From IMG/VR virus record IMGVR_UViG_3300012953_000002, positions 1 through 56,030 of that record: a stretch of DNA of 56,030 nucleotides; one strand, given 5' to 3'. Shown in pieces: positions 7,901-53,533 of the stretch. The DNA is from a virus (Duplodnaviria; Caudoviricetes). Numbering within the stretch: the first letter of the stretch is position 1; each line of letters opens with the position of its first letter. The notes below the pieces were generated by a model. The model did no database searches. It was not told where the DNA came from and saw nothing but the letters and a program-made list of their open reading frames with translations. Both the position numbers and the translations under genes were made by a program.

Positions 7901-10634
7901 ATGCACTAATAAATATTTTATTTTCATCAACTATTTTTTTATCTTTAATAACTTTTCTGTTTTTATCAATAAACTTAATTTGGTCTACACTTTCAATTAA
8001 CTTTAACCCAAGTCTTAATTCTGATTTTTCGCTTCTTAAAATACCCGCATCTATTAATAAAGATACAATTTCTTTATTACTAGGATGGCTAGCATCAAAT
8101 AAAGATGAAAACTTTGTAATCCTTTTATTTAAAATTCTATTTTGCATATACCCTAATAATTCATCAACACGAGAAAAAGAAAATGCATTGTTAGCTGTTT
8201 TATTTAAACCTAGCTCAACATTAATTGCACTTTCCATTGATTGTATTCTTCTGGCCAATGCTTCTAATCTAGCAATACCAGTATCTTCATTTTTCAAAAA
8301 TGCTGCTTGATTAATTTGTCGTTTATTTGCTTTTTGCAATTCTATTGTTGTTTTAAATATATTATCAACTTTATCTCTTAACTCATATAAAGCAGATTCT
8401 TGATTGTCTGGTTTTACATTTTTAAAATAATCAATTACTTCACCTAATTTTCCTTGTCTTGCAAGGCTAAAGAAATGAGAATCTATAACTAACATATTTG
8501 GTATTTCACCAATAGAACCATCACTAGAAGAAGCTTTTAATCTAAGTCCTTCTACTATTTCAACAACATCTAAAGCACTTTTTACTATTTCTGTTTCAAA
8601 TTTTTCACCTACAGTATCTGCAACTTTACGCAAATGATTTGAAAACTTGGTTATATCTCCATATTCCTTTAAAAGTAAATCATTAAATTCTTTTGCAGTT
8701 TTTTCAGAAATAGAATCTAAACTTTTAGTATATTTTTTTGCAGAAGCTCCTTGTAAAAACCTATAAAAATGATGGAACAAATCTAAACGTTCAGTAGATT
8801 GCGTAACAGATTTTTCACCTCCTATTTCCATTTTAAACACACCAGGTCTATTACCAACAGGACGTTCTATAGGAGTACTAAGAGCGTCAAAACTATTTGT
8901 AGTTAAACCTAAATTTTCTGCACGTTGTACAAAAGAATTTAATATAGGGTCTGAAGCAAAAGGATTTAAATTAGAACTTATAGCTGGATCTAAAGTAGGG
9001 ATTCTTCCTATAGGATTTGTAGTAATATATTTAGGAGGCAATAAATTCATAGTATGCAATTGACGTCTTAATCTTTGCATTTGTTCAGGAAACATATCTT
9101 GTCTTCTTGCTAAACCTTTTCTATTTAAAGCAGCTCCAAGTATAAAATTAACAGCTAAGTCTTCGCCACTAGTTTCTACACCATTCATCATATCATAAAA
9201 TCCTCTAGCATTCATTGCGGCACCACCTAGTACCATTTTAGGCCAATTGTCTTTTATATTTGCCCAAGAATTTTTTGTTGTCCATTTTAATAAATCATTC
9301 CCAACTTGATTTGCAGTTTTTTCAAATACTCTTCCTACAATTTCTTTTTTAGCATTATCTGTAACACTAATATTTAAATCATCTAATATTCTGATTGCTT
9401 CAGATTCAGGCTTACTTAAATCAAATCTATATTTTTTACCTTTATATTTAAAGTTTTGAATATTCATTCCTAATGGTCTTAAATCTGCAGCTAATAACGT
9501 AGATTGATGTCTAACATTAGCATAAGATGAATTAGCTATAATGTTTTTATGATTTGCTAATTTACCTCTAAGAGCAGAATAAAAATCTAATTTTCCTTGA
9601 CTAGATTTACCTGCTGAAGGTAACCATTTTAATGCACCAAAAAGACCACCAACTACTACTCCCCATTTTGGATGATCTAAATCATACTTATGTTCACCAT
9701 CAGATATAGCAACATGCAAGCCTTCTCTAGTTGCATCTAATACTCCAAACATAAACCCTTCATTAATAATAGATCCAATACCGTAAGCAAGTTTTTTGTT
9801 TGTCATAACTTCTGTAAAATAATCTGTAACACTAGTTATTGGTCTGTCTTTTAAGTATTTTAAATATACTTCACTTAATTGATCTCCTATTTTTGCATTA
9901 ATTAATCCTGATTTTACTCCATCATCAATACTTGTTTTTAATGATGTTTCAATTGCCTCTTTATAAGCATCTGCACTATTTAATTTTCCAGGTTTATGAG
10001 CCTTAGAAACTACTTCACCTAAATTATTATGTATACTTCTTCCATATACTTTTGCTCCAACATCATCCATTCCTTTGATTGCTGCAACATCTGTTCCAAT
10101 TTTTTTAAAGGCAGCTTCACGAGTTTCTCTACCCATCATTTTAGCAGTAGCAGTTTTAGTAAGCCAATTAATTCCTTTTAATCCAACTTTAGCAGGAGCA
10201 CCCGCTATAAATCCAGCAACAGTACCAGCTCCTGAAGCTAGTTTACCTGCAAAGTTTTCTGGACCTCCATAAAATTCTATTTCTTTACCAGTTTCAGGGT
10301 CAATTCCAGTTTGTTTTTCTTGACCTGTTAACCCAGTTCTTGCCTGTTCTAAATATTTATCTCCTTCTTCTCCAAGCCATTCATATTCATCTGCAAATCC
10401 TAAAGCTCCCAAACTTGCTTCATCCATAGCTGACCATAAAAAATTACCAAAAATATTTTGAGACCAATGAGTATCATCCATTGGTTGTCCTACAGCTTCT
10501 AATACAGATGAAGTGCCTGTTGTGCCTTTTTCAAAGCCAGGTCTAGCGGGGGTTCTTGCTGGTTGTTTCCCTAAACTTGTTTTACGATTTTCTTCTGCCG
10601 ACAAAAAGGCTTGAAGTTCTCTTTCTAAGCTCAT
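1932..10634 (-). CDS. Giant virion protein, putative single-chain two-barrel (DPBB) virion RNA polymerase
   Basis: 2900 aa. RYP at aa ~1963 then FEGDYDIDT (DxDxD at aa 2002-2006, nt 4617-4631). Upstream FDSITFIS, FKPIIS, YGKTAF and SSADK segments. Sits at the end of the structural module. Confidence 0.75.
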   Translation of the reverse strand: MSLERELQAFLSAEENRKTSLGKQPARTPARPGFEKGTTGTSSVLEAVGQPMDDTHWSQNIFGNFLWSAMDEASLGALGFADEYEWLGEEGDKYLEQARTGLTGQEKQTGIDPETGKEIEFYGGPENFAGKLASGAGTVAGFIAGAPAKVGLKGINWLTKTATAKMMGRETREAAFKKIGTDVAAIKGMDDVGAKVYGRSIHNNLGEVVSKAHKPGKLNSADAYKEAIETSLKTSIDDGVKSGLINAKIGDQLSEVYLKYLKDRPITSVTDYFTEVMTNKKLAYGIGSIINEGFMFGVLDATREGLHVAISDGEHKYDLDHPKWGVVVGGLFGALKWLPSAGKSSQGKLDFYSALRGKLANHKNIIANSSYANVRHQSTLLAADLRPLGMNIQNFKYKGKKYRFDLSKPESEAIRILDDLNISVTDNAKKEIVGRVFEKTANQVGNDLLKWTTKNSWANIKDNWPKMVLGGAAMNARGFYDMMNGVETSGEDLAVNFILGAALNRKGLARRQDMFPEQMQRLRRQLHTMNLLPPKYITTNPIGRIPTLDPAISSNLNPFASDPILNSFVQRAENLGLTTNSFDALSTPIERPVGNRPGVFKMEIGGEKSVTQSTERLDLFHHFYRFLQGASAKKYTKSLDSISEKTAKEFNDLLLKEYGDITKFSNHLRKVADTVGEKFETEIVKSALDVVEIVEGLRLKASSSDGSIGEIPNMLVIDSHFFSLARQGKLGEVIDYFKNVKPDNQESALYELRDKVDNIFKTTIELQKANKRQINQAAFLKNEDTGIARLEALARRIQSMESAINVELGLNKTANNAFSFSRVDELLGYMQNRILNKRITKFSSLFDASHPSNKEIVSLLIDAGILRSEKSELRLGLKLIESVDQIKFIDKNRKVIKDKKIVDENKIFISALLEIIGTKNQYQTTKVGDIYIDPSKIQSLKNMFNSLGINVESNLLQDFSNQIVQRVVYENFKNSQLNPEQKNVFQQFMNLGTPKEGESFSLMHWHKPGGKRATGMMVHKIEYLGTDTEIREIVNDFNNYVTEMHISGKVGLKDNVVAMGDTYTITDPSTFHVIKSVLQDAQLSANRTAVTELNAFFLSSAENVTGADAGLTFLTAYPNKASKLVRLLINTGALEVKKGDGKTEGTYKYEINQEKFNLESTQTQLRLFVEKYGINLDSLDLMVEQGKKAVESYMEDSYGLGDHKSSMPLPEFFKLYKPKDQGNVEINPTPEKMLNFLNETLYTFDMKFKGFDGIIDAFNRLSIPNGEAREAYHRLMQVVSNHIESKPKTVYFFSNGKVQSKDSHMHAYDNPYYKALDKMGIKFALVDGITYDWGFVGDSSRLRYDMFDIFQADSRIQNNYDKAIMSDRKAMFMDLLAKKTNAKGFENGIQIMEMPGMKLSLIIGKDSAVIDKIRTEFDRIYKENIDKVKGTDNETLLKTVKNNLENSTTFDPEVQQVFRAIMAESMIKGKDKSLFTDYLSMNEADLNKFLVGRQTMFNTSKFKRINSELVDAMVQAHPKLNDIIKTTTGKDIDVDGIEAAKKYSKAKEFGIGVFNDGVTNGGWSVKESFELHNKGKKWEDYYADRLNESAFDSITFISKEMADFLGFYYAAPGSKIFKPIISSQGNANLMYGKTAFVYDPKLEPFFKSNPNLDILMASSADKLKVAGDKMIEVAKNDLYKMGKINDANIIKVPLNSIGVQKIPDYHAPSKIAPSIINNHTDIDLAQRLYNDYFAPQLGENLKTIRSTMNNPFIENELLRTIKDKMSKGDHEALEMLDGTDYHMSAQLEWLKLSPYASLDIFGEPTKMNIFKSKYLDTALAPTSEYTFNSKRIRFGSKSVIGQKADTDLQGTLFNNETGKIERYGEIMIPETIGEFDAVFDGRNFNVRVINTKNNEISNAKDIHKKIMKDIFADVPKEKLDATIEKSWNHMVTSGKPMQSVFDFFNTTTGADKVRYDIGISTLRYPRTRPNDLHLLRLRGFVKGSGHQSIVNSNDVYHIFEGDYDIDTVDFFWGSSDAWIENILRQQKVFVPTADVQTAKEVLPNIKLLSTNARKNNEAWSELNGNKRSIANLRGVVQATSAKVKYIDNIAATVRDSQGLPRKVLMRNNQTTEGKVGYWEIRMDWDNADFHLRQALEGQILLDASAPDPKILRTTRDWMTDFLFPKIDNSISKETFKTGDGTYNTNNLRMFLDSKNNGIGAYKDKRVRLFRKVEYIKEKGETIEREIDLNEVDIRSIKKLMSEYSKILEVMPGRKVYSQAEPKKATYEQMLNASNRYFNYLNSANFQNYMFKGLWQSQNFHPDTGEASYSLQKGPNAAILKDYFGYLPQTYNKYNKTTGQTDKIPYRYKKYSTRNPFHPDVLSKLNDISEGRAGGIAEKSLFAIKSDLFNRLHLDNKVLTNETLLRENQLVHELINNPEFDVTEMNNFMPKLLGEIKNDIDIIKRLKKQMYFVKKSRAKNKAAKLKKLKEEINEMQNKIKPLLVDEAGKWKKTKDIKNLEVVDIQSDKNYIAGTTSYFALTFARGVHGEMNNKPGYRSSVLEARKMVGKEYAYLNELHGQGYGKRSIFNTETMKVLSKTSDITDIETRIHETITRNVNEHGLTWLWDFAMPSNAHIQNYIGRYKGNVMPMAIKASGNYKRAVRWLLDAHANQLPEGFYVAHGGRYEASTFTKVLQHLAQVDFQYRQLFSGKGKNLPSDVFELNKMLAYGAPRFNWKMDNMFSKYTDIKATKHIDEFNPFGMGRRYDQQIQFFRALSNLNEKVSGQQFDQGAGVLSYTNQLMMENGYLLPQKVIALMADAHSKLDPIMSQAYPASIDIRTGEAKPLRPFDLFNNPMHVLLGGDGLTGSSISLNPYKAMSSTSRSKMKNLIRQTKDMIETNENHWETEFKEIQQPLDVLKGEC

Positions 10635-40300: not shown

Positions 40301-41028
40301 TTTTCTATTTCTTTTGGTCTTTTTATTTCTTCTAAAGCATTTTCCCCAAAACCTTTAAAGACTGCGCCTGATATTTGTGTAACCTTAGTTTGACCTTTAT
40401 CCTCTAAGTCCATTATATCAGATAATTTAAATAAAGCTTTTAATCTAGTATCAGACTTCTCAGCCGTCTCAGCCTCTGATTTAATACCTTTAAGTATATA
40501 TTCTTCATTTACACCTAATTCTTCTAATACTGGTTTTAATTCTTCTTTCATAGCTGTCTTAATCCTTTCAGTTTTTACTAGACTACTTGATTTTTCTACT
40601 GCATATCTAATATTATTAGTAGGAAATGCTTTTAAGTAGGCTTGTTCTGGTTTCATACCTTGAGAAAGGTATAAAACGAAGACAGATTCAGCCTTGGTCA
40701 GATTTTTACGGTCTAAGAGAATATTATCTGGGCTTTTACTCCCCCCGAATGAGTATATATTAGCCCTTTTAGATGCATCCATCTTTACACGGGGTCCTAT
40801 AGGAAATGTACCAGTGCACGTTCCTATGTATTCTCTGACCTTATCTCTACCTTTCGAGCGTAACATCTGCCCTCGTCTTAATACTTGAATGACGCACTCA
40901 TCATCAGTTCTTACCCAGTCGCCTACTTCACCATCCCTCCAGTCGCTAATTACTTTAAGACTTTGCGGCAGCTGGTCTTCTGGTTCGAACACGTGATGAA
41001 CCAGCTTTTTTATCTTGTAGCTTCTCAT
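40297..41028 (-). CDS. Probable terminase small subunit
   Basis: Upstream of terL; HTH-like EQAYLKAFP and helical RLKALFKL segment. Confidence 0.6.
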   Translation of the reverse strand: MRSYKIKKLVHHVFEPEDQLPQSLKVISDWRDGEVGDWVRTDDECVIQVLRRGQMLRSKGRDKVREYIGTCTGTFPIGPRVKMDASKRANIYSFGGSKSPDNILLDRKNLTKAESVFVLYLSQGMKPEQAYLKAFPTNNIRYAVEKSSSLVKTERIKTAMKEELKPVLEELGVNEEYILKGIKSEAETAEKSDTRLKALFKLSDIMDLEDKGQTKVTQISGAVFKGFGENALEEIKRPKEIEK

Positions 41029-41170
41029 CTTTCTTCACCTCTTTCTGTTTAACCTCTTTTTTCTTAGTTAAAACAGATAGGTACTCCTCCATATGTTTTA
41101 TTCGAGCTTTTAATTGCTTGAGTTCTTTCGCTTGCGCTCTATACTTCTCGCCCAATGTCCATACATCCAT
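40955..41170 (-). CDS. Hypothetical coiled-coil protein
   Basis: 71 aa, GGGAG RBS. Confidence 0.55.
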   Translation of the reverse strand: MDVWTLGEKYRAQAKELKQLKARIKHMEEYLSVLTKKKEVKQKEVKKDEKLQDKKAGSSRVRTRRPAAAKS

Positions 41171-41216
41171 TATTATCTCCCTGGTTATTAACGAGGCCGC
41201 GCCAGCGGCCGCTTAC

Positions 41217-41402
41217 TTATGCTTCTGCTAAATCATCGGTTAAGCAAGCTATATCCGTGTCACTAAAGTACTTATCCATTTCTACCTCGTATATTATTCG
41301 TTTAGTATCAGAGGTATCATCAATAATTTTCTCTTCAATGTATTCGCAATTATCTCCGTTATCATCATACTCAATAGTTAATACATACTTTTTTAATGCC
41401 AT
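41217..41402 (-). CDS. Small acidic protein, first gene of the minus arm
   Basis: 61 aa, AGGAGG RBS. Confidence 0.65.
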   Translation of the reverse strand: MALKKYVLTIEYDDNGDNCEYIEEKIIDDTSDTKRIIYEVEMDKYFSDTDIACLTDDLAEA

Positions 41403-41778
41403 AACTATAACCTCCTTTTCTAAATTTATTATATCATATATTATATACTTTTATTTAAAAAATCAAGAATTATTTTAGAGCTGTAAGTTACTTAAATATA
41501 AGGACTTACGAGTTTTACATACTAACTAGTCGGTTTTGTGTAAGCAATCCTAGATTTTGTCGAAGAGGGTGGTGAAATATTATGTTAGGTTCACGAAGAG
41601 AAAAGGTTTCAAAATTGTAGCATTTTATCGTGTGGTCTTTTTGATTATAACCGCCCTATCGGGCGGATTTCCAAAAGGAAATTTTAGTTAAAAATCATAT
41701 AGATTTTTTTAATATATATAATATATAAAATATAATGTAGTAATAAAATATAATGTAATAATAATGGAGGTAGTAATC
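41403..41778. promoter_or_regulatory. Divergent control region
   Basis: Non-coding gap between arms. Minus-strand TTGATT (41461-41466) with TATAAT-like boxes; GC hairpin 41651-41666; TAAAATATAATGTA twice. Confidence 0.6.
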
Positions 41779-42039
41779 ATGACTGATGAAAAGATGATGT
41801 ATATGAATGAAATCAAGAAAGTGTTTAGAACCTTTCGTCCTAAAATAGCTGCTGCTCCTGCAAAAGCGGGTTATAACCAAATATTGAAATGTAAGATACC
41901 TTCTCAATATGATCTTAAAAGACAGAGAGATACTGTTATACAAGATATTGTTGATGAAGCTAGAATATTTGGAGTTGATCTACAGATTGGGACTGAAGCA
42001 GAGTATGTTAGCCCTTTCGATAAACCTAAAGATGAGTAG
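41779..42039 (+). CDS. Hypothetical early protein
   Basis: GGAGG at 41766 favours ATG 41779. Confidence 0.65.
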   Translation: MTDEKMMYMNEIKKVFRTFRPKIAAAPAKAGYNQILKCKIPSQYDLKRQRDTVIQDIVDEARIFGVDLQIGTEAEYVSPFDKPKDE

Positions 42040-42053
42040 TTCTTTAGGTTTTT
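42022..42053 (+). terminator. Hairpin over the stop codon, possible terminator
   Basis: AAACCTAAAGA/TCTTTAGGTTT 11-bp stem ending in a T-run. Confidence 0.4.
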
Positions 42054-42152
42054 AGGTAAAGATTGACTTTATTGTAGTAATTGAGTAAGACTCGGAGAAT
42101 TATATGCGCTTGGCAACAGAAAAGCATATCACTACTATCGGTGCTTTACTTA
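42053..42152 (+). ncRNA. Structured RNA candidate 1
   Basis: UAGGUAAAG/CUUUACUUA closing stem, GUAGU/ACUAC, GAGU-AAG-ACUC, AUAUGC/GCAUAU with a UG-GCAA-CA tetraloop. Confidence 0.5.
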
Positions 42153-42277
42153 TTATATAGTATAAACTTACACTAAACCATCTGTAATAGAATCAACCCA
42201 ATAAATCTAATCTGGGGTAATGTATTCGTTGATGTAAGTAAGTTGAATTTTCATTAAATTAAACGAGGAGAGTAATT

Positions 42278-42493
42278 ATGTTACCATATGAAATTAAAGT
42301 TGAATGGTATACCCAGATGTATTATAACAATAAACAAGTTGCTACTGAAGTTATGGGTAGTAAAGTATTTTATGATAAATCACCTGAGTATGTTGCTGGT
42401 TATTGTCAGCATTTTGCTGATAAAGGATATGGAGTATGTATAATTGATGTTAATATCAAGCGTACTCAAATATATCCAAGTGTAGTTAAATAA
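42278..42493 (+). CDS. Hypothetical protein
   Basis: 71 aa, GAGGAG RBS. Confidence 0.65.
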   Translation: MLPYEIKVEWYTQMYYNNKQVATEVMGSKVFYDKSPEYVAGYCQHFADKGYGVCIIDVNIKRTQIYPSVVK

Positions 42494-42499
42494 TTCAAG

Positions 42500-42570
42500 C
42501 GCGGAGGAGTGAAACGGCTCACGCTAGCCTCATAAGCTAGAAACATCGGGTTCGACTCCCGTCTCCGCAA
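42500..42570 (+). tRNA. tRNA with CAT anticodon (Met/fMet/Ile2 unresolved)
   Basis: Acceptor GCGGAG/CTCCGC, D stem GTGA/TCAC, anticodon arm CTAGC-CTCATAA-GCTAG, T arm CGGG-TTCGACT-CCCG; CCA not encoded. Confidence 0.9.
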
Positions 42571-42600
42571 CAAAGATGAGCTAATGCTCTGCTCGCGACC

Positions 42601-42718
42601 AGTGTGGTGGTGTATAATGGAAGTAATGAATCCGTTGATATAATGTGTATTGCCGTCATGATTAGCTAGGTGTAAGCCCTAGGTGACAATAATAGCACAA
42701 TATCTATGCTACCATACT
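42601..42718 (+). ncRNA. Structured RNA candidate 2
   Basis: 14-bp closing stem with 4 G-U pairs; internal AAUGGA/UCCGUU, GUCAU/GUGAC and CUAGG/CCUAG helices. Confidence 0.6.
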
Positions 42719-42730
42719 AAAGATTTAAAT

Positions 42731-43216
42731 TTGTGGTGTATAATGATAGGTAATGGTCTGATCTACCATTATTGAAGTATTATACTAAATGGTAAACCTG
42801 TGGGAGTAACCGTAAGATTATTATAGGCTTAGCGGCTATTATAATAATCGAGAAGTGCTCATGCCCTGTACGATAAAGGGGCGCAGGTAACATATTTAAG
42901 GGATATGCCCTGATATGTCTATTGAATAATAGATATATGGTTTTAGCGAACTAAATATGTGTAGGTGCAACGGGATAACAATAAAAATAAGGAGAAATCC
43001 ATGTTATTTATTGTCGGCACTAATCTATACTAATATACAACCCGTAGTTTCGATATGTATAGAGAATGATATTTTCATAGTGAGATCTTATGATGTAATA
43101 GGCGTCAACCTATTATAAGTAAGGTAGTGACAGCTATTATCATTCGTGTCGTGAGGTGGCAACACCCATAGAAGCAAAGTACTTTAGAGGTATAACAAAC
43201 CCTCTACCAGCCACAG
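42731..43216 (+). ncRNA. ROOL-like large ornate ncRNA
   Basis: About 490 nt with no long ORF, near a tRNA, closed by UGUGGU/GCCACA, many helices; ordered blocks match my recollection of ROOL. Confidence 0.7.
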
Positions 43217-43220
43217 TTCA

Positions 43221-43255
43221 TTACACTAAACTAATTAAGGAGAAATACAATGAAA
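43221..43255 (+). repeat. 35-nt leader repeat, copy 1
   Basis: 32/35 identical to 44545-44579. Confidence 0.85.
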
Positions 43256-43876
43256 GATAAAGAAGCAGCAATAATATGTGATTTAGATGGTACTATAGCA
43301 CTTATGAATGGTAAAAGGTCGCCATTTGAGTTCTTAAAATGTGATCAAGATGACCCTAATCTACCTGTAATAGATGTATTAGAAACTATGGTAAAAGCAA
43401 AAGATTGGGTTACTATATTTACTACAGCAAGAATGAATGTTCCAATACCTAAAGATATGTATAGACGTATGACTGCTTACAGTAAATGTGCAGAATATGA
43501 TATAATTGCATGTACTGATATAGAAGAATTAAAAGAATGTGAATCTTATGATAAGTCTTTACAATGTCACATTCATCCTTGTTTAAAACAAGATAATCCT
43601 AATAAAATAATATTTATTCATCTTACAGATGTTTATTCATTAACATTATTATGGCTTCTTCAACATGTTAATCTACATTGGAAATATTTTAGAATGTTTA
43701 TCAGAGAAAATAATAATAATGATAAAGATAGATATGTAAAGCTTAAACTATATGAAGAACAGATTAAGCCTAACTATGATGTTAAACTGGTGCTGGATGA
43801 TAGAAATCAAGTTGTAGAAATGTGGAGATGGGGTGCTAAACTACCTTGCCTTCAAGTAGCAGATGGTAATTTTTAA
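43250..43876 (+). CDS. HAD phosphatase (T4 PseT/PNKP 3'-phosphatase-like)
   Basis: CDLDGT, FTTAR, K and LDDRNQVVEMWR...CLQVADGNF. Confidence 0.85.
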   Translation: MKDKEAAIICDLDGTIALMNGKRSPFEFLKCDQDDPNLPVIDVLETMVKAKDWVTIFTTARMNVPIPKDMYRRMTAYSKCAEYDIIACTDIEELKECESYDKSLQCHIHPCLKQDNPNKIIFIHLTDVYSLTLLWLLQHVNLHWKYFRMFIRENNNNDKDRYVKLKLYEEQIKPNYDVKLVLDDRNQVVEMWRWGAKLPCLQVADGNF

Positions 43877-43880
43877 TAAT

Positions 43881-44163
43881 TATGTAGGGATACGTTTAAT
43901 AGCTTGGTCGCTGCTTATTCTTAACGGATGAGATGATCTAAACTATTGATACGGGGGCACCTGTTGATATAGGCAACGAACCTAACGTCATTTCTGAAAA
44001 ATGTATACCTACATATAAACTTAAGCTCAACGTGCATGGGCGATGTGTGGAATATATCTGGATGACCCTCTGGCGCCTCCATGGTAACAGTAGATATAAT
44101 CAATGCACACGGGGGACGACACGTAGATCACTCAACAGGCTCGGAAATAACTGTGGTTCGCCC
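43881..44163 (+). ncRNA. Structured RNA candidate 3 (two domains with cross-pairing)
   Basis: Stems 43881/44015 and GGGCGA/UCGCCC 44038/44163; GC-richer than its surroundings; no credible ORF. Confidence 0.6.
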
Positions 44164-44217
44164 CAAAGAATTGACTTATAATCATAATAAAATACACACA
44201 ACAAAGTGGAGGTTATT

Positions 44218-44382
44218 ATGGCTAGATCATTAAAAGTTTCTCGCGTCATTAGCTTTGGTAAGTCTGGTAATACAGCTCAAATAGTAGTTTCTACTAAGAA
44301 GGGCTTAAAAACTAGACATATCAGGTTAGTTAATGGTGTGTGGAAATGTAAAAATGGACACATATACTCTATTGAAGGATAG
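44218..44382 (+). CDS. Small basic protein, 54 aa
   Basis: GGAGG RBS, MARSLKVSRVISFGKSG...HIYSIEG. Confidence 0.65.
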   Translation: MARSLKVSRVISFGKSGNTAQIVVSTKKGLKTRHIRLVNGVWKCKNGHIYSIEG

Positions 44383-44396
44383 ATTATAAGTCTTAT

Positions 44397-44540
44397 TTGG
44401 AGAGATTGATATAAGATGTTTTGCAATTTCACAGAATAGGCTGGAGTTGCAGGTTATTTTGATAGACTAGTTACGACTACCTACGAATAACTAATGAACC
44501 TGCGCAGCGCTCAAATAAAGAGCAATATTAATCTCTCTAA
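44397..44540 (+). ncRNA. Structured RNA candidate 4 (rod with central bubble)
   Basis: 16-bp closing stem with 2 G-U pairs; GCUG/CAGC, GCAGGUU/AACCUGC, UAGUUA/UAACUA and a GCUC/GAGC side hairpin. Confidence 0.6.
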
Positions 44541-44544
44541 AAAT

Positions 44545-44579
44545 TTACAATAAACTAACTAAGGAGAAATATAATGAAA
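44545..44579 (+). repeat. 35-nt leader repeat, copy 2
   Basis: 32/35 identical to 43221-43255. Confidence 0.85.
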
Positions 44580-44780
44580 TTTAAATTATGTGATTTGGTA
44601 AGTAAAATAGTATATAGTGACAAAAGTAATGATGAGATAGTAACATCAATTGTCCAGAATACTAAAAATAATAAGGAATTGACCCTTATTAAAAATGATA
44701 AATCCTCTGGAAAGAATGCTAAGTTCTGGACTAAGTATTCTGACAGTAAACTTAATGGCATATTAAGGAGGTCTAAATAA
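44574..44780 (+). CDS. Hypothetical protein
   Basis: 68 aa, AAGGAG RBS. Confidence 0.65.
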   Translation: MKFKLCDLVSKIVYSDKSNDEIVTSIVQNTKNNKELTLIKNDKSSGKNAKFWTKYSDSKLNGILRRSK

Positions 44781-44929
44781 TGGGTGTACATTTTAGAAAT
44801 ATTCGTGATGTATTGCAAATATTGAGAGATACTTATACATATATCGCTATACAACATAAAAACGATGAACTAGGCAGTAAAATTATGGATAGAATTAATA
44901 TAATATTAAAAGATAATGAGGAGGATTAA
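44780..44929 (+). CDS. Hypothetical protein, 49 aa
   Basis: AAGGAGG RBS, TAATG coupling, MGVHFRNIRDVLQ... Confidence 0.6.
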   Translation: MGVHFRNIRDVLQILRDTYTYIAIQHKNDELGSKIMDRINIILKDNEED

Positions 44930-44931
44930 AC

Positions 44932-45459
44932 ATGGGATTTGATATACATGGGATAAAACCCAAAATAAATGTAAAACTAGATGATACTACAGTTTATGGT
45001 ATGATAGAGTCAATTGATGATTTTGCAGAAAGATGGTCAATACAAGATAAGTTAGGTAAAAATGATCGTAAAAAGTATTGGAAAGAGATGGAAAAACATC
45101 ATGATGATAATCCAGGTATATATTTTCGAAATAATGTATGGTGGTGGCGTCCTTTATGGGATTATGTATGTGATACATGTAAAGAGATTCTTAATGATGA
45201 AGATGTAAATGCTGGTTTTTATAATGATTTAAAAACAATCTCTAGTGAAAAAGCTATAAAAATAGCAAATGTATTATTTGAAAAGATAAAATCTGGACAT
45301 ACTGATAAATATGCAAAGCAATTTGAAAAAGACAGAAAAAAGTTAGAGAAAAATGAGGATAAAGACAGTCAATTTATGTCAAGTTATCCCTTTGATACTA
45401 AAAATGTTAAAAGATTTGCTGAATTTTGCAAAGAATCAGGAGGTTTTGAGATATGTTAA
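44932..45459 (+). CDS. Conserved-looking phage protein of unknown function
   Basis: 175 aa, MGFDIHG, YFRNNVWWWRPLW, FCKESGGFEIC. Confidence 0.75.
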   Translation: MGFDIHGIKPKINVKLDDTTVYGMIESIDDFAERWSIQDKLGKNDRKKYWKEMEKHHDDNPGIYFRNNVWWWRPLWDYVCDTCKEILNDEDVNAGFYNDLKTISSEKAIKIANVLFEKIKSGHTDKYAKQFEKDRKKLEKNEDKDSQFMSSYPFDTKNVKRFAEFCKESGGFEIC

Positions 45460-45608
45460 AAGTAAAAGTAATTAGATTAGATAAAACTGGTAATCTTCAA
45501 GAATATACTATGAATTTTAAGGATACTAAGAGTAATAATCTAGAAATAGAAAAATTAGCTGATATAGCAGAAGATTGTTATGTTGATCAGTTAAATAGCT
45601 GGAAATAG
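45453..45608 (+). CDS. Hypothetical protein, 51 aa
   Basis: AGGAGG upstream, MLKVKVIRLDKTG... Confidence 0.5.
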   Translation: MLKVKVIRLDKTGNLQEYTMNFKDTKSNNLEIEKLADIAEDCYVDQLNSWK

Positions 45609-45637
45609 TTAACTAAATACAGAATAGGAGGCCAATT

Positions 45638-45853
45638 ATGGCAAATGTTAGAACAATAAGATGGTTAGCAGGTGGTGGTTTTGTTGATAAGGAAGTATCA
45701 TCAACAACAGTAGCTCAATTAAGAGCTGAGTTAGATATTAGCCCTGGTGCTGATATTGCAGTTAATGGAACTAATGTGGCGGATACGCATGAACTTACAG
45801 ATGGTTCCGTGGTAGCAGCTGTTCAGAATAACAAATCTGGCGGTAGCTACTAG
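45638..45853 (+). CDS. Ubiquitin-like (beta-grasp) modifier
   Basis: 71 aa; TVAQLR, IAVNG, LTDGSVV; ends KSGG-SY. Confidence 0.85.
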   Translation: MANVRTIRWLAGGGFVDKEVSSTTVAQLRAELDISPGADIAVNGTNVADTHELTDGSVVAAVQNNKSGGSY

Positions 45854-45868
45854 TTTAGTGTAAACACA

Positions 45869-45924
45869 GAAGAATGGGGGATGATCCACACTTACAATCC
45901 TACTCAAATTATCCCCTTTTCTTC
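45869..45924 (+). promoter_or_regulatory. Intercistronic hairpin between Ubl and E2-like genes
   Basis: GAAGAAUGGGGGAUGAU/AUUAUCCCCUUUUCUUC. Confidence 0.6.
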
Positions 45925-45943
45925 GTAACATAGGAGAGATACA

Positions 45944-47254
45944 ATGCAAACAAATTTATTTGAATTAAATCCAGATTTGAGAACCTTAATAGAAAATATT
46001 CAATTAGGACCTCAAGCTGAAGTATTAGAGTTAATTGATCAATTTAATACTAGATACGTACAAGGTGAAAATCATATAGCAAGGCCTTATAATTTACATG
46101 CACCTACCAAACCTCTTGGTATTACTAAGAAATTTTATTGGAAGCCAGGAGCTTATGATACTATAAAAGATGTAATATGGTATCAAGGTGAAATGCATAA
46201 GAAAGCAGCTTCACTAGGAAAAGTTGTACAAAGAGTTAAAGATAATGCTAATTGGAGATTAAGAGGTATTAAAAATGAACTACAAAGCATTGAAGATATA
46301 TTAACTAGATTTAGACAACAAGGCTTAATAATGCAAGATAATACTGATGATGTAATTGAGTCATGGGAGATAATAAAAGCTCATTTATATCAACAATATG
46401 AAATGTCTGATGGTGCTTTTGGTTTAAAATTAGAAGAAGTAATAGTTAATGATGTTATTGTTAATTATTATTTGGATGTTATATATACTTACTCAGATAT
46501 TAAGATTAATTATAGACATTTTGATAATCCAGATAGTATAGCAGAAATTAACTTACCTGGACAAGGTCATATAACAATTAGACTATCTATAGTAAAATTA
46601 ATAAATAGTTTAATATCTGCAAAATTGAATATTAATAATATATCACGAAGTAATGTTAGAATAGCTAATGGTCATAGTGGTAATAAAAATTGGTTTTATG
46701 CTATAGGTGGTAGATGGTTTGGAAGTTATGAAGGATTACAACATCCATTTATATCTAATAACAGCTATTCATACAATTATCAAGGATTATTTAGCGATAA
46801 CTTCAGATATACTTGTGTAGGAGGAATGAGTCAAGAATTTCAATCTTGTGTTGAATCATTAGACTTTATATCTCTAAAAGTATTCGTTGAAAGATTACTA
46901 ACGCATTATGATACTAATACAGGTCCGTTAAATCAAATTAGCCAATCTTATCATGGACAACCTAATTTCTTAGAAGGGTTAGATGAATATAATAATATAG
47001 TTGGTAGAAAACCAGCTGATCAATGTGGCTATAGAGGTATAGTTCAAGGTTATGCTGAAGAAGGAATAAACATTGAAGAAGATTCTTATTGTGCTGAATT
47101 CTGTGCAATTAAAGACAAATGTGCATCTTATAAAGCTGCTGTAATATTATATAAAGATGAACCTGTAGAAGTTTCGCCTACAAACACAAACGCTGAAAGA
47201 GAAGCTCTGGAAGCATTAACATTAAATCTAGTAAATAATAGGAGGAATCAATAA
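45944..47254 (+). CDS. Putative E2-like conjugating enzyme with long N-terminal extension
   Basis: HPFIS (H267) then YTCVG (C291), fitting the HP..C(L/V)G E2 signature; lies between Ubl and JAB. Confidence 0.6.
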   Translation: MQTNLFELNPDLRTLIENIQLGPQAEVLELIDQFNTRYVQGENHIARPYNLHAPTKPLGITKKFYWKPGAYDTIKDVIWYQGEMHKKAASLGKVVQRVKDNANWRLRGIKNELQSIEDILTRFRQQGLIMQDNTDDVIESWEIIKAHLYQQYEMSDGAFGLKLEEVIVNDVIVNYYLDVIYTYSDIKINYRHFDNPDSIAEINLPGQGHITIRLSIVKLINSLISAKLNINNISRSNVRIANGHSGNKNWFYAIGGRWFGSYEGLQHPFISNNSYSYNYQGLFSDNFRYTCVGGMSQEFQSCVESLDFISLKVFVERLLTHYDTNTGPLNQISQSYHGQPNFLEGLDEYNNIVGRKPADQCGYRGIVQGYAEEGINIEEDSYCAEFCAIKDKCASYKAAVILYKDEPVEVSPTNTNAEREALEALTLNLVNNRRNQ

Positions 47255-48925: not shown

Positions 48926-49408
48926 ATGGAAGCAATTCAAGAACCCAAGGGTATTTCTGACCCTATAAATAGAAGAAAAACCGAATGGATGTCACCTAAA
49001 ATTGATAAATTGGCTGGAGCGTTAGCTAAAGCTCAATCTGAAATTAGAGGTGCTAAGAAAAGTAGTACTAATCCATTCTTCAAGTCTGATTATGCTGATT
49101 TAGATACTGTAATTAAATCATGCTTTCCACAATTAACTAAAAATGGTTTATCCGTAATACAGGGAAATGATACCTGTGATAAAGGTAGTTTTTATGTAAC
49201 TACTATGTTATTACATGAATCAGGTCAATGGATTAAATCTAAGTTAAAGATGCCTATTGGTGGTAAACAAGACGCTCAAGCTGTAGGTGCAACAATAACA
49301 TATGCAAGAAGATTTTCTTTATCTGCTATGGTAGGTATCGCACAAACAGATGATGATGGTAATTCAATTTCAGATAAAGCTATAAACAAAGGAGTAAACA
49401 ATGGCTAG
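48926..49408 (+). CDS. erf: ERF-family ssDNA annealing protein
   Basis: ALAKAQ, NPFFKSDYADL, GATITYARRFSL...DDDG. Confidence 0.92.
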   Translation: MEAIQEPKGISDPINRRKTEWMSPKIDKLAGALAKAQSEIRGAKKSSTNPFFKSDYADLDTVIKSCFPQLTKNGLSVIQGNDTCDKGSFYVTTMLLHESGQWIKSKLKMPIGGKQDAQAVGATITYARRFSLSAMVGIAQTDDDGNSISDKAINKGVNNG

Positions 49409-52669: not shown

Positions 52670-53533
52670 ATGAAATATGTAAATAGAAAGGCAATGAAGA
52701 TTAGAGAATCAGGGCGTAGTAGTGATTTTATTACTCCTAGCTTTGGTTTTGGTTGTTTATACAAGTGTACGTATTGTTATATGCGTAGACATGTTCCAAA
52801 TGGGCTTACAATAGCTCAAAATCCTGAAGATATACTTATAGCTATAGAAAACCATAGTAATGAACTTAAATGGCCTAAAAAGCCTAATCAAACACATGAA
52901 GAATATTATAGTTATGATTTTAGTTGCAATGAAGACTTTGTATTACATTCTAGGTATCATGATTGGAGACTTGTATTTGATTATTTTAAATATCATGAAA
53001 AAGCTATGGGTACTGCTGCTACTAAATATGTTAATAAAGATTTATTAGATTATGATGCAGATAGAAAAATACGAATTAGGTTTAGTATTATGCCTCAACA
53101 ATTAGCTGATAAATTAGAACCTGGGACATCTAAAATACTAGATAGAATTAAAGCTGTAAATGATTTTTATGAAGCAGGTTATGATGTTCATTTAAATTAT
53201 TCTCCAGTAATAGTACATAAAGATTCTAGAGATATGTATATAGATTTATTTGAGGCTGTTGATAAGTATGTTGATAATAGTATTAAAGATAAAGTAAAAT
53301 GTGAAGTAATATTCTTAACACATAATAAACAAATGCATCAATATAATTTAGATAACAATAAAACAGAACAAGAAGAGTTATTATGGAAGCCTAACATACA
53401 AGAAACTAAAATATCTCAATATGGTAATACTAATATTAGATATAAGTATGATTATAAATGGCGTTGTATATCAAAGTTTAAAGAATTACATAACTTTGTA
53501 TTGCCATGGCAAGAAATAAGATACATATTCTAG
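52670..53533 (+). CDS. splB: Spore photoproduct lyase-family radical SAM enzyme
   Basis: GCLYKCTYCY (CxxxCxxC), ATKYVN, RIRFS, EPGTS...RIKAVN...GYDVHLNYSPVI. Confidence 0.85.
   Translation: MKYVNRKAMKIRESGRSSDFITPSFGFGCLYKCTYCYMRRHVPNGLTIAQNPEDILIAIENHSNELKWPKKPNQTHEEYYSYDFSCNEDFVLHSRYHDWRLVFDYFKYHEKAMGTAATKYVNKDLLDYDADRKIRIRFSIMPQQLADKLEPGTSKILDRIKAVNDFYEAGYDVHLNYSPVIVHKDSRDMYIDLFEAVDKYVDNSIKDKVKCEVIFLTHNKQMHQYNLDNNKTEQEELLWKPNIQETKISQYGNTNIRYKYDYKWRCISKFKELHNFVLPWQEIRYIF

What the first reader, a model, noticed from the sequence alone, without database searches (positions are those of the whole stretch)
42731..43216. ROOL-like giant ncRNA next to a tRNA
Seen: an ORF-free, helix-rich ~490-nt region. 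Its ordered blocks are GUAUAAU...AUUAUACUAA, AACCUGUG, CAUGCCCUGU...GCGCAG, UGAAUAAUAGAUAUAUG...CGAAC, GUGUAG, CUAUACUAAUAUA, GUGAC and AUUCGUGUCGUGAGGUG. From memory these follow the ROOL motif order; ROOL is phage- and tRNA-associated and of unknown function. Inference: a compact variant in a phage unlike the Firmicutes-type contexts usually reported.
Basis: partly seen in the sequence, partly recalled or inferred. Interest (0 to 1): 0.8.

Follow-up and report, generated by a model that had tools for sequence, protein, structure and literature searches.

The report
New large folded marine-phage RNA
This gene-free stretch of an uncultured marine phage encodes a real, roughly 484-base, elaborately folded RNA that turns up as a discrete molecule in ocean RNA libraries; it is not a ROOL RNA but an uncatalogued family that sits beside a tRNA and an RNA-end phosphatase gene.

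Summary
Window 42730-43213 (+) has no open frame and folds far better than shuffles (z -4.98).

The ROOL reading fails. Rfam's ROOL and GOLLD models give no match even at E<=10. The same scan found ROOL at 130 bits in a known carrier.

Homologues occur in three subfamilies: four phage genomes and five further contigs. The 3' core (43008-43160) is shared by all and shows compensatory changes in 20 of 44 pairs. The 5' domains differ between subfamilies.

The RNA lies next to tRNA-Met and/or a stand-alone PNK-type 3'-phosphatase gene in most carriers. The closest relative genome lacks exactly the RNA-plus-phosphatase block. One carrier has the RNA with neither neighbour.

Best reading: a new family of stable, tRNA-linked phage RNA, like GOLLD/ROOL in context but not homologous. 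Its function is unknown; I infer a trans-acting role in RNA-end metabolism or counter-defence. Earlier notes of this scan describe the same "RNA island" here and in a related genome.

The parts
42730..43213 (+). The RNA itself, about 484 nt, as seen in RNA-library contigs
   Evidence: the X1 contig (487 nt) lies on 42730-43213 with 0 differences. X4 (452 nt) lies on 42763-43214 with 0 differences. X6 (478 nt) lies on 42754-43213 and then runs into 17 loose letters that I recall as the start of an Illumina adapter. Fold z -4.98. No open frame.
42732..42737 (+). 5' strand of the closing helix P1 (UGUGGU); pairs with 43210-43215 (GCCACA)
   Evidence: MFE and RNAalifold (columns 5-10 with 515-520). 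The equivalent helix in the distant homologue L085 is GGAGGGU/ACCCUCC.
42738..42786 (+). 5' hairpin (GUAUAAUG.../...UAUUAUAC). The TATAAT here is helix, not a promoter.
   Evidence: pairs 11-19 with 53-61, with a compensatory change (UA to CG). The helix lies inside the RNA-library contig that starts at 42730.
42789..42888 (+). Domain 1: three-way junction (ACCUGU/GCAGGU stem enclosing two hairpins)
   Evidence: Model R2 finds it only in the window subfamily (window, L245) and not in L085.
42890..42960 (+). Domain 2: stem ACAUAUUU/AAAUAUGU enclosing hairpins. The hairpin at about 42898-42938 is replaced by a longer, unrelated one in L010 and in the X7 contig.
   Evidence: Alignment; pairs; insertions listed, table 4.
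42961..43010 (+). Domain 3: hairpin region. It carries a Shine-Dalgarno-like AAGGAG (42989-42994) and an AUG (43001) heading a 10-codon frame. Its pairing is uncertain.
   Evidence: Read. The two alifold runs disagree on its pairing. The mini-frame differs in length in L004/L006/L245 and is absent in L085.
43008..43160 (+). Domain 4: the conserved 3' core shared by all three subfamilies. Conserved unpaired CGGYA, UAA, GACA and UCGUGAG.
   Evidence: Models R1/R3: window 182.6 bits, L085 37.5 then 75.8 bits, L103/L052 about 21 then 108 bits. Covariation on 8 sequences: 94.1% of cells paired, 20 of 44 pairs changed on both sides, 0 of 500 shuffles as high.
43155..43166 (+). Short hairpin with a GCAA (GNRA-type) loop. 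GAAA loops in L085 and L103; CAAAA in L004/L245.
   Evidence: Read and alignment A9.
43186..43205 (+). 3' hairpin AGAGG/CCUCU. It is GGAGG/CCUCC in L004/L245, GUAGG/CCUAC in L085 and GCAGG/CCUGU in L103.
   Evidence: Read from alignment A9. Not formally counted, because MAFFT shifts the register between subfamilies.
42500..42570 (+). tRNA-Met (anticodon CAU), 160 nt upstream of the RNA
   Evidence: Rfam tRNA 47 bits; ARAGORN. In L004/L006 the same tRNA ends about 5 nt before the RNA's P1. In L103 a tRNA-Met starts about 9 nt after the RNA.
42571..42729 (+). Spacer element between tRNA and RNA. It holds a second copy of GTGGTGTATAATG (42607). Conserved in L010 and G001, absent in L004/L006.
43221..43247 (+). 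Leader with a ribosome-binding site, between the RNA's 3' end and the phosphatase gene. Repeated at 44545-44571.
   Evidence: 93% identity over 27 nt. Two copies also in G001.
43250..43876 (+). Stand-alone PNK-type HAD 3'-phosphatase gene (208 aa, DxDxT motif intact), gained or lost together with the RNA
   Evidence: PF25109 HAD_PNKP 121 bits; phrog_505; invariant D11/D13/T15. G001 lacks exactly 42728-43877.

Best explanation
Window 42730-43213 (+) is the gene of a stable, compactly folded non-coding RNA of about 484 nt. It belongs to an uncatalogued family carried by a few uncultured marine phages.

Anatomy. The two ends pair with each other (P1). Inside lie a 5' hairpin, a three-way-junction domain, a domain with a swappable hairpin, a purine-rich hairpin, and a conserved 3' core of about 200 nt. 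That core comprises domain 4, a GNRA-type hairpin and a 3' hairpin. The 3' core is shared by all family members; the 5' domains differ between subfamilies.

How it most likely works (inferred). It is made at the start of the phage's rightward arm as part of a multi-RNA precursor with tRNA-Met. It is cut out with the help of the host's tRNA-processing enzymes: RNase P, or 3'-trailer cleavage where the tRNA abuts it. Its paired ends and tight fold then let it accumulate as a discrete particle. It travels with a stand-alone PNK-type 3'-phosphatase gene but is not a leader of that gene. I therefore infer that it acts in trans, as a decoy or scaffold in RNA-end metabolism, or in counter-defence against host RNA-cutting systems.

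Shown: non-coding, structured on the + strand, conserved with compensatory changes, present as a discrete contig in RNA libraries, not ROOL or GOLLD by model, cassette-like linkage with tRNA-Met and the phosphatase.

My own odds:
- real stable RNA of a new family: about 0.9
- tRNA-linked processing: about 0.5
- functional coupling to the phosphatase: about 0.35
- any particular molecular target: below 0.2

The confidence figure given for this explanation (0.7) is for the core claim, a real and stable structured RNA of a new, non-ROOL family, together with the trans-acting reading. It is not for a particular target.
For: - Non-coding in all six frames.
- Fold z -4.98 on +, against -3.34 on -.
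- 21-24 of 153 consensus pairs are G-U on the + strand, which would be A-C mismatches on the other strand.
- RNA-library contigs. From study P1, X1 and X4 end at 43213/43214. From study P3, X6 ends at 43213 and then runs into adapter-like letters. X1 starts at 42730. These ends coincide with helix P1. A fourth contig (X7, study P4) is a relative with the L010-type hairpin insertion.
- Close homologues: L010 at 83%, L006 and L004 at 79%, G002 at 81% nucleotide identity. This is about as conserved as the neighbouring coding gene: 89 vs 84% and 82 vs 83%.
- RNAalifold: 16 of 122 pairs (4 sequences) and 20 of 153 pairs (5 sequences) keep pairing through changes on both sides.
- Distant homologues found by covariance model: L085/L008 (E 3.6e-7) and L103/L052 (E about 6e-4 in a small search; 108 bits after one iteration). 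L085's region folds with z -5.11 and its own closing helix.
- Core covariation on 8 sequences: 94.1% paired against 78.6% shuffled; 20 of 44 pairs changed on both sides against 11.1; slid controls give at most 6 pairs.
- Context. tRNA-Met then RNA then phosphatase in the window, L010, L004 and L006. RNA then tRNA-Met then phosphatase in L103/L052. Phosphatase then RNA in L085/L008.
- G001, whose terminase is 95% identical, lacks exactly 42728-43877.
- The phosphatase is otherwise rare in this phage group: 1 of 25 records.
Against: - No raw reads were available. Logan contigs cannot show strand, true ends or level, and the tool warns that DNA can be present in RNA libraries.
- One contig (X7) runs on into the phosphatase gene, so read-through or precursor forms (or DNA) exist.
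- The family is small and effectively three lineages. One covariation measure (further pair types, 29 vs 28.0, 204 of 500 shuffles as high) is not significant. Alignment A7 was fitted to the model's structure.
- The 5' domains are not conserved in the distant subfamilies, so 'one RNA' could be a core plus accessory modules.
- Domain 3 pairing is ambiguous, and three listed variant substitutions break the predicted pairs there.
- Linkage to the phosphatase is partly an ascertainment effect: six of the carrier contigs were fetched through that gene. G002 carries the RNA with no phosphatase in the genome and no tRNA in the locus examined (L245).
- No promoter or terminator could be assigned.
- No experiment bears on function.
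Confidence: 0.7

Rival explanations
1. It is not one RNA but a string of independent modules. Only the 3' core of about 200 nt (43008-43215) is the conserved functional RNA, and the 5' hairpin and domains 1-3 are separate or accessory small RNAs that happen to be co-assembled.
For: - The domain-1 model R2 finds nothing in L085 even with filters off.
- Only the 3' core is shared across the three subfamilies.
- Modules in this island shuffle between relatives.
Against: - Single RNA-library contigs span the whole 42730-43213.
- P1 joins the extreme 5' and 3' ends, and an equivalent closing helix exists in L085.
- GOLLD is described as having the same layout, a variable 5' part and a conserved 3' part, within one RNA (passage read).
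Confidence: 0.15
2. It is a long cis-acting 5' leader that controls translation or stability of the downstream phosphatase mRNA.
For: - It ends 36 nt before the phosphatase start codon.
- RNA and phosphatase are gained or lost together in the G000 vs G001 comparison.
- The X7 contig runs from the RNA into the gene.
Against: - In L085/L008 the homologue lies downstream of the phosphatase gene.
- In L103 a tRNA separates them.
- G002 has the RNA and no phosphatase.
- Contigs from two studies stop at 43213/43214, before the leader and ribosome-binding site.
Confidence: 0.07
3. It is a very divergent, compact ROOL or GOLLD homologue beyond the reach of the Rfam models.
For: - The context is the same: phage, next to a tRNA. 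A marine GOLLD is reported downstream of tRNA-Met, and GOLLD has a conserved 3' and a variable 5' region (passages read).
Against: - No ROOL or GOLLD match at E<=10 in the window or in relatives, with a ROOL positive control in the same run.
- Length is 484 nt, against an average of 581 nt for ROOL and over 800 nt for many GOLLDs.
Confidence: 0.05
4. It is a DNA-level element (replication origin, packaging or promoter hairpins), and the apparent RNA is incidental.
For: - It lies near the strand-switch point of the genome, where GC skew flips at about 41-42 kb.
- The region is AT-rich and hairpin-rich.
Against: - The + strand folds better than the - strand, with 21-24 G-U pairs.
- Compensatory changes preserve RNA-type pairs, including G-U.
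- RNA-library contigs match its limits.
- It is absent from most relatives that share the same backbone: R1 found it in 2 of 25 records, and R3 found confident hits in 3 of 34 records, plus one borderline hit in G022 (E 0.068).
Confidence: 0.03

Closest known systems
GOLLD RNA (Rfam RF02032)
   Same: Large, elaborately folded phage/prophage RNA, often beside tRNAs. A marine example lies downstream of tRNA-Met. It has a conserved 3' region and a variable 5' region. Function unknown (passages read).
   Different: No match to the GOLLD model at E<=10 in G000, G002 or G019, nor in cmscan. Length is about 484 nt against often over 800 nt. No evidence here for or against a 14-mer cage.
ROOL RNA (Rfam RF03087)
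   Same: Phage-associated, tRNA-proximal, abundant, multi-junction RNA of unknown function (passages read).
   Different: No match to the ROOL model, with a positive control in the same run. Length is 484 nt against an average of 581 nt. It comes from a marine uncultured phage, not a Lactobacillales or rumen context. ROOL's six junctions and three pseudoknots were not found or not tested.
Stable small RNAs of the phage T4 tRNA cluster (species 1 and 2, rnaC/rnaD). Recalled; the comparison also appears in earlier notes.
   Same: Phage-encoded stable RNAs of unknown function, encoded with tRNAs and released from a common precursor by host tRNA-processing enzymes.
   Different: Those RNAs are about 120-140 nt (recalled). 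This one is about 484 nt and multi-domain. No sequence relation was tested, because no model was available.
Y-RNA-like RNAs (YrlA) of bacterial Rsr/RtcB RNA-repair operons. Recalled.
   Same: A structured non-coding RNA genetically linked to RNA-end-repair enzymes, sometimes phage-encoded beside tRNAs.
   Different: No Ro/Rsr or RtcB gene was seen in the parts of this genome I annotated. No tRNA-like module was detected by ARAGORN in the RNA. Much larger.

Membership tests
ROOL (RF03087) | Match to the Rfam covariance model at or above 99.1 bits | tested here: not met
   No match at gathering level, at E<=10 on 42400-43400, or at E<=10 on the whole genome. In one search the same scan gave 130.4 bits on pMP118 (L256) and nothing on L001.
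ROOL (RF03087) | [quoted passage not shown] | tested here: inconclusive
   484 nt by contigs. The consensus folds show fewer junctions. Pseudoknots were not searched for.
ROOL (RF03087) | Phage or prophage location, often near tRNAs | tested here: met
   Complete phage genome. tRNA-Met lies 160 nt upstream.
ROOL (RF03087) | Homo-oligomeric nanocage (passage read) | not testable with these tools
   No RNA 3D or assembly tool was available.
GOLLD (RF02032) | Match to the Rfam covariance model at or above 150 bits | tested here: not met
   0 of 3 records at E<=10. Controls rang only below the cut-off, so there was no positive control for this model. cmscan of the window and relatives lists no GOLLD match.
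GOLLD (RF02032) | Conserved 3' region with a less conserved 5' region | tested here: met
   The 3' core is found in all three subfamilies. The domain-1 model finds only the window subfamily. This is a resemblance in layout, not homology.
GOLLD (RF02032) | Next to tRNAs in phages (a marine example lies downstream of tRNA-Met) | tested here: met
tRNA-cluster stable phage RNAs (T4 species 1/2 kind) | Co-transcribed with tRNAs and released by tRNA-processing enzymes | not testable with these tools
   Only spacing is seen. The tRNA ends about 5 nt before P1 in L004/L006. A tRNA begins about 9 nt after the RNA in L103. The spacer is 160 nt in the window.

The most novel reading that the evidence does not exclude
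This is a third, independent class of large 'ornate' phage RNA beside GOLLD and ROOL, and the first with a tied-in enzyme. Together with tRNA-Met and a stand-alone 3'-phosphatase it forms a mobile early cassette. In that cassette the RNA particle (possibly self-assembling) captures or mimics a host RNA-cutting or RNA-repair target, while the phosphatase edits the resulting RNA ends. If so, the cassette is a phage counter-defence that works through RNA-end chemistry.
Probability: 0.18. Interest if true: 0.85.

Novelty: new variant of a known kind. Interest (0 to 1): 0.62.

Why it matters
Large, complex-folded bacterial and phage RNAs are rare. The few known classes (GOLLD, ROOL, OLE, raiA) have drawn attention because they form unexpected RNA-only assemblies while their functions stay unknown.

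This RNA is a new family of that general kind. It comes from uncultured ocean phages, has direct RNA-library support, and has well-defined ends.

Unlike GOLLD and ROOL, it also has a recurrent protein-gene neighbour with a known chemistry: removal of RNA 3'-phosphates. That neighbour gives a concrete, testable handle on what tRNA-linked giant phage RNAs are for.

At about 484 nt with a conserved core of about 200 nt, the RNA is small enough for in-vitro transcription, chemical probing and cryo-EM.

Tried and rejected
- BLASTN of 42571-43249 against 50,697 GenBank phage records: no match.
- The repeated GTGGTGTATAATG as a phage promoter: only 2 matches in the genome against 1.58 expected. The second copy lies inside the RNA-library contig and forms a helix. 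Rejected.
- The sigma-70 and terminator scan of 41000-45000 was uninformative: 34 promoter-like sites against 23.2 +/- 4.2 expected. None of those near the RNA is conserved in relatives. There is no terminator near 43213.
- The 53-aa frame 42957-43118 and the 10-codon frame after the AAGGAG: broken by 1-nt indels, or different in length in L004/L006/L245, and absent in L085. Rejected as genes.
- Domain-1 model R2 in L085, L007 and L011: nothing credible.
- R1 on 42 shorter terminase-bearing viral contigs: 0 matches; 8 further loci were not held.
- R1 and R3 on 157-158 phosphatase loci: no members beyond those listed.
- G022 gave a borderline hit (14.7 bits, E 0.068) that I did not count.
- Pattern scans of viral contigs gave two extra loci (L253, L254). 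They have no R3 match, no tRNA and no phosphatase, so they are chance.
- An exact-pattern scan of 185,579 species' genomes: 0. No host clue.
- Terminase tblastn: the best cultured phages are below 26% identity, so no named relative.
- L245 gave sub-threshold manA (E 0.61) and DUF2693-RNA (E 0.07) hits, read as noise.
- In one search the flanking genes have almost no contigs in the four RNA runs.
- X6/X7 variant substitutions were mapped on the consensus fold. Most are kept or compensated. Three in domain 3 break pairs. Seven differences were not shown by the tool, and the replaced hairpin cannot be scored. This is weak evidence only.
- The tail hairpins could not be counted formally, because MAFFT shifts the register between subfamilies.
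- The supplements of PMC10690425 (10,006 viral candidate RNAs, each at most 151 bases by the passage read) are closed. Pieces of this RNA could be listed there.
- Literature searches found no description of this RNA. That covers only the held library.
Full report
WHAT THE WINDOW IS. The 56,030-base window is a complete IMG/VR virus record with direct terminal repeats.
- Genes run leftward from about 41 kb. They include terminase, portal and major head protein.
- Genes run rightward from about 41.1 kb. They include an ERF recombinase, a primase-helicase and a radical-SAM lyase-like protein.
- GC skew flips at the same place.
- The large terminase has at least 599 relatives in IMG/VR, the 80 kept all at 75% identity or more. 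It is below 26% identical to any cultured phage in GenBank.
- The finding lies 1.6 kb into the rightward arm.

THE OBSERVATION.
- Between the tRNA-Met at 42500-42570 and the next gene (43250-43876), no frame is open. Each of the six frames has 13-28 stops, and each uses all three stop codons.
- The + strand of 42731-43216 folds to -139.2 kcal/mol against -111.07 +/- 5.65 for shuffles (z -4.98). The - strand gives z -3.34.
- In the consensus fold, 21-24 of 153 pairs are G-U on the + strand.

IS IT AN RNA? One search for sequencing runs listed 24 RNA runs from 19 studies holding part of 42480-43900. The best held 0.31 of the sampled words. I laid four runs from three studies on 41000-46000. All are Logan contigs, so strand, level and true ends cannot be read, and DNA may be present in RNA libraries.
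- X1 gives a 487-nt contig on 42730-43213 with no difference.
- X4 (same study) gives a 452-nt contig on 42763-43214 with no difference.
- X6 (another study) gives a 478-nt contig on 42754-43213 with 15 differences. It then continues into 17 letters that I recall as the start of an Illumina adapter, meaning the sequenced insert ended there.
- X7 (third study) is a 672-nt contig of a relative, on 42726-43351, running into the next gene.
So contigs from two studies stop at 43213/43214 while the DNA goes on. The tool rates this as a weak hint. The adapter junction, and the fact that these ends are the two strands of the closing helix (42732-42737 with 43210-43215), make it stronger. I read the mature RNA as about 42730-43213, 484 nt.

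IS IT ROOL? No.
- Rfam 15 at gathering level finds only the tRNA in the whole window.
- At E<=10 on 42400-43400 the best non-tRNA hit is noise: PK-repZ at 20 bits against a threshold of 44. Neither ROOL nor GOLLD is listed.
- ROOL searched alone (574 positions, threshold 99.1 bits) gives nothing at E<=10. That run had no positive control.
- I therefore fetched the region of Ligilactobacillus salivarius pMP118 where the abundant lncRNA, later named ROOL, was mapped (passages read; locus L256). I scanned it together with window 41071-44749. ROOL was found at 130.4 bits, full length, in L256. Only the tRNA and noise were found in the window.
- GOLLD (RF02032, 416 positions, threshold 150 bits) gives nothing at E<=10 in the window's genome or in two relatives that carry the RNA. 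My first try used a wrong accession.
- Four relatives' loci also hit no Rfam family beyond tRNA.

RELATIVES.
- Through the downstream gene I found contigs with the same RNA: L010 (83% over the whole intergenic stretch), and L006 and L004 (79%).
- Through the terminase I found genome G002 (81%).
- In L004/L006 the tRNA-Met ends about 5 nt before the RNA, and the window's 160-nt spacer is missing.
- In L010 and in the X7 contig, one hairpin of domain 2 is replaced by a longer, unrelated one. This is typical of a variable stem in a structured RNA.
- RNAalifold on four and on five sequences predicts 122 and 153 pairs. Of these, 16 and 20 keep pairing through changes on both sides.
- The RNA is about as conserved at nucleotide level as the neighbouring coding gene.

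DISTANT RELATIVES AND THE CORE.
- A covariance model of domain 4 (R1, 43008-43160) found full-length matches in L085/L008 (37.5 bits, E 3.6e-7). There the match lies in the 460-nt gap directly downstream of the phosphatase gene.
- It also matched L103/L052 (about 21 bits). There the match lies in a 570-nt gap that ends at a tRNA-Met, with the phosphatase gene about 100 nt further on.
- After one iteration (R3) these score 75.8 and 108 bits. No further members appear in 158 phosphatase loci or in 34 viral records. In those 34, 4 matched at E<=0.1, one of them borderline.
- L085's region folds with z -5.11 and has its own closing helix.
- On the 8-sequence core alignment:
  - 94.1% of cells pair, against 78.6% after shuffling.
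  - 20 of 44 pairs change on both sides, against 11.1.
  - The covariation score is 0.460 against 0.190 (0 of 500 shuffles as high).
  - Sliding the partners gives at most 6 such pairs.
  - The count of further pair types is not significant (204 of 500).
  - The alignment was fitted to the model.
- Shared unpaired motifs are CGGYA, UAA, GACA and UCGUGAG. They are followed by a short hairpin with a GNRA-type or A-rich loop, and a 3' hairpin whose stem differs in every subfamily.
- The domain-1 model finds only the window subfamily.
So the family has a conserved 3' core and variable 5' domains.

CONTEXT AND LINKAGE. Four arrangements occur:
- tRNA-Met, RNA, phosphatase (window, L010, L004, L006)
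- RNA, tRNA-Met, phosphatase (L103/L052)
- phosphatase, RNA (L085/L008)
- ORF, RNA, ORF, with no phosphatase in the genome and no tRNA in the locus (G002)

Most of these contigs were fetched through the phosphatase gene, so adjacency to it is partly built in. Two less biased observations remain.
- G001, whose terminase is 95% identical, is collinear with the window up to 42727. It resumes at 43878. It therefore lacks exactly the RNA, the leader and the phosphatase gene.
- The phosphatase profile matches only 1 of 25 large related records. G019, the matching record, was added through the phosphatase search rather than the terminase search. The RNA occurs beside this rare gene in all but one (L007) of the close-clade contigs with enough flank.

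The protein is a stand-alone HAD phosphatase domain of the PNK type with its DxDxT motif intact. The RNA is not simply that gene's leader: it can lie downstream of the gene, be separated from it by a tRNA, or occur without it.

HOW IT LIKELY WORKS. Shown: a discrete, folded, conserved + strand RNA.

Inferred:
- It is made with the tRNA in a multi-RNA precursor.
- Where a tRNA abuts it, RNase P (L103) or tRNA 3'-trailer cleavage (L004/L006) would create one of its ends.
- The paired ends and compact fold then protect it.
- No promoter or terminator could be assigned.

Its recurrent company, a tRNA and an RNA 3'-end phosphatase, suggests a trans-acting role in RNA-end metabolism or in defence against host RNA-cutting systems. 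One form this could take is a decoy or a scaffold. I hold this at roughly one in three.

A GOLLD/ROOL-like self-assembly is possible but untested. An exposed AAGGAG in domain 3 occurs in two of the three subfamilies. It could touch ribosomes, and GOLLD is reported to bind ribosomes in pull-downs (passage read). This is only a lead.

COMPARISON WITH WHAT IS KNOWN.
- GOLLD. Same kind of context and layout: phage, next to tRNA, a marine example downstream of tRNA-Met, conserved 3' and variable 5' region (passages read). No model match.
- ROOL. Same context (passages read). No model match.
- The stable RNAs of the T4 tRNA cluster, and Y-RNA-like RNAs of RNA-repair operons, are functional analogies that I recall. 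They were not tested here.
- The large viral screen PMC10690425 reports candidates of at most 151 bases (passage read). Its supplements are closed, so fragments of this RNA may be listed there.
- My four literature searches found no description of it.

EARLIER NOTES OF THIS SCAN. They describe the same 'RNA island' on this window and a look-alike island in a related genome, with a tRNA, a giant RNA and a PNK-type phosphatase. I used them as leads only.

VERDICT.
- The feature is real and well delimited.
- The ROOL label is wrong.
- It is a new family within the loose kind of large tRNA-linked phage RNAs, with an unusual and testable tie to an RNA-end phosphatase.

Noticed in passing
window 43878-44172: More structured non-coding RNA follows the phosphatase gene. 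G001 has an 85% match to 43878-44017. L007 has an 85% match to 44017-44172. An RNA-library contig of a relative covers 44042-44151. These modules shuffle independently of the large RNA.
   Followed up: partly
window 42571-42729: The spacer between tRNA and RNA is itself conserved in L010 and G001, with an internal deletion of about 42646-42700. It carries a second copy of the RNA's first helix strand (GTGGTGTATAATG at 42607). It may be another small RNA, or a recombination scar of cassette exchange.
   Followed up: partly
window 43221-43247 and 44545-44571: A 27-nt leader with a ribosome-binding site is repeated (93% identity) in front of two unrelated genes, each just after a structured RNA. 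G001 has two copies as well. It is a possible processing site, phage promoter or cassette joint.
   Followed up: partly
window 42989-43033: Inside the RNA, AAGGAG is followed 6 nt later by AUG and a 10-codon hydrophobic frame. The frame has 7 codons in L004/L006/L245 and is absent in L085. It is probably not a gene but a possible ribosome-contact site.
   Followed up: partly
window 43211-43213; L004, L245, L085 equivalents: The RNA-library contigs end at ...GCCA. A CCA sits at the same place of the closing helix in L004 (GACCA), L245 (GCCA) and L085 (UCCA), but not in L103. This may be chance, or a tRNA-like end.
   Followed up: no
window 1932-10634 (-): A 2900-aa ORF, and the 1251-aa and 1166-aa ORFs nearby, match no PHROG family at E<=1e-5.
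   Followed up: no
L245 1129-1482 (-), genome G002: A further gene-free stretch of about 350 nt follows the RNA in G002. It has a sub-threshold DUF2693-RNA hit: 27.9 bits against a threshold of 81.3, E 0.07.
   Followed up: no
Here RF01998 turned out to be group-II-D1D4-1, and GOLLD is RF02032.
   Followed up: yes
window 52670-53533 (+) and 48926-49408 (+): A spore-photoproduct-lyase-like radical-SAM protein (PF20903, 83.5 bits) and an ERF recombinase (PF04404, 93.6 bits) lie in the rightward arm.
   Followed up: no
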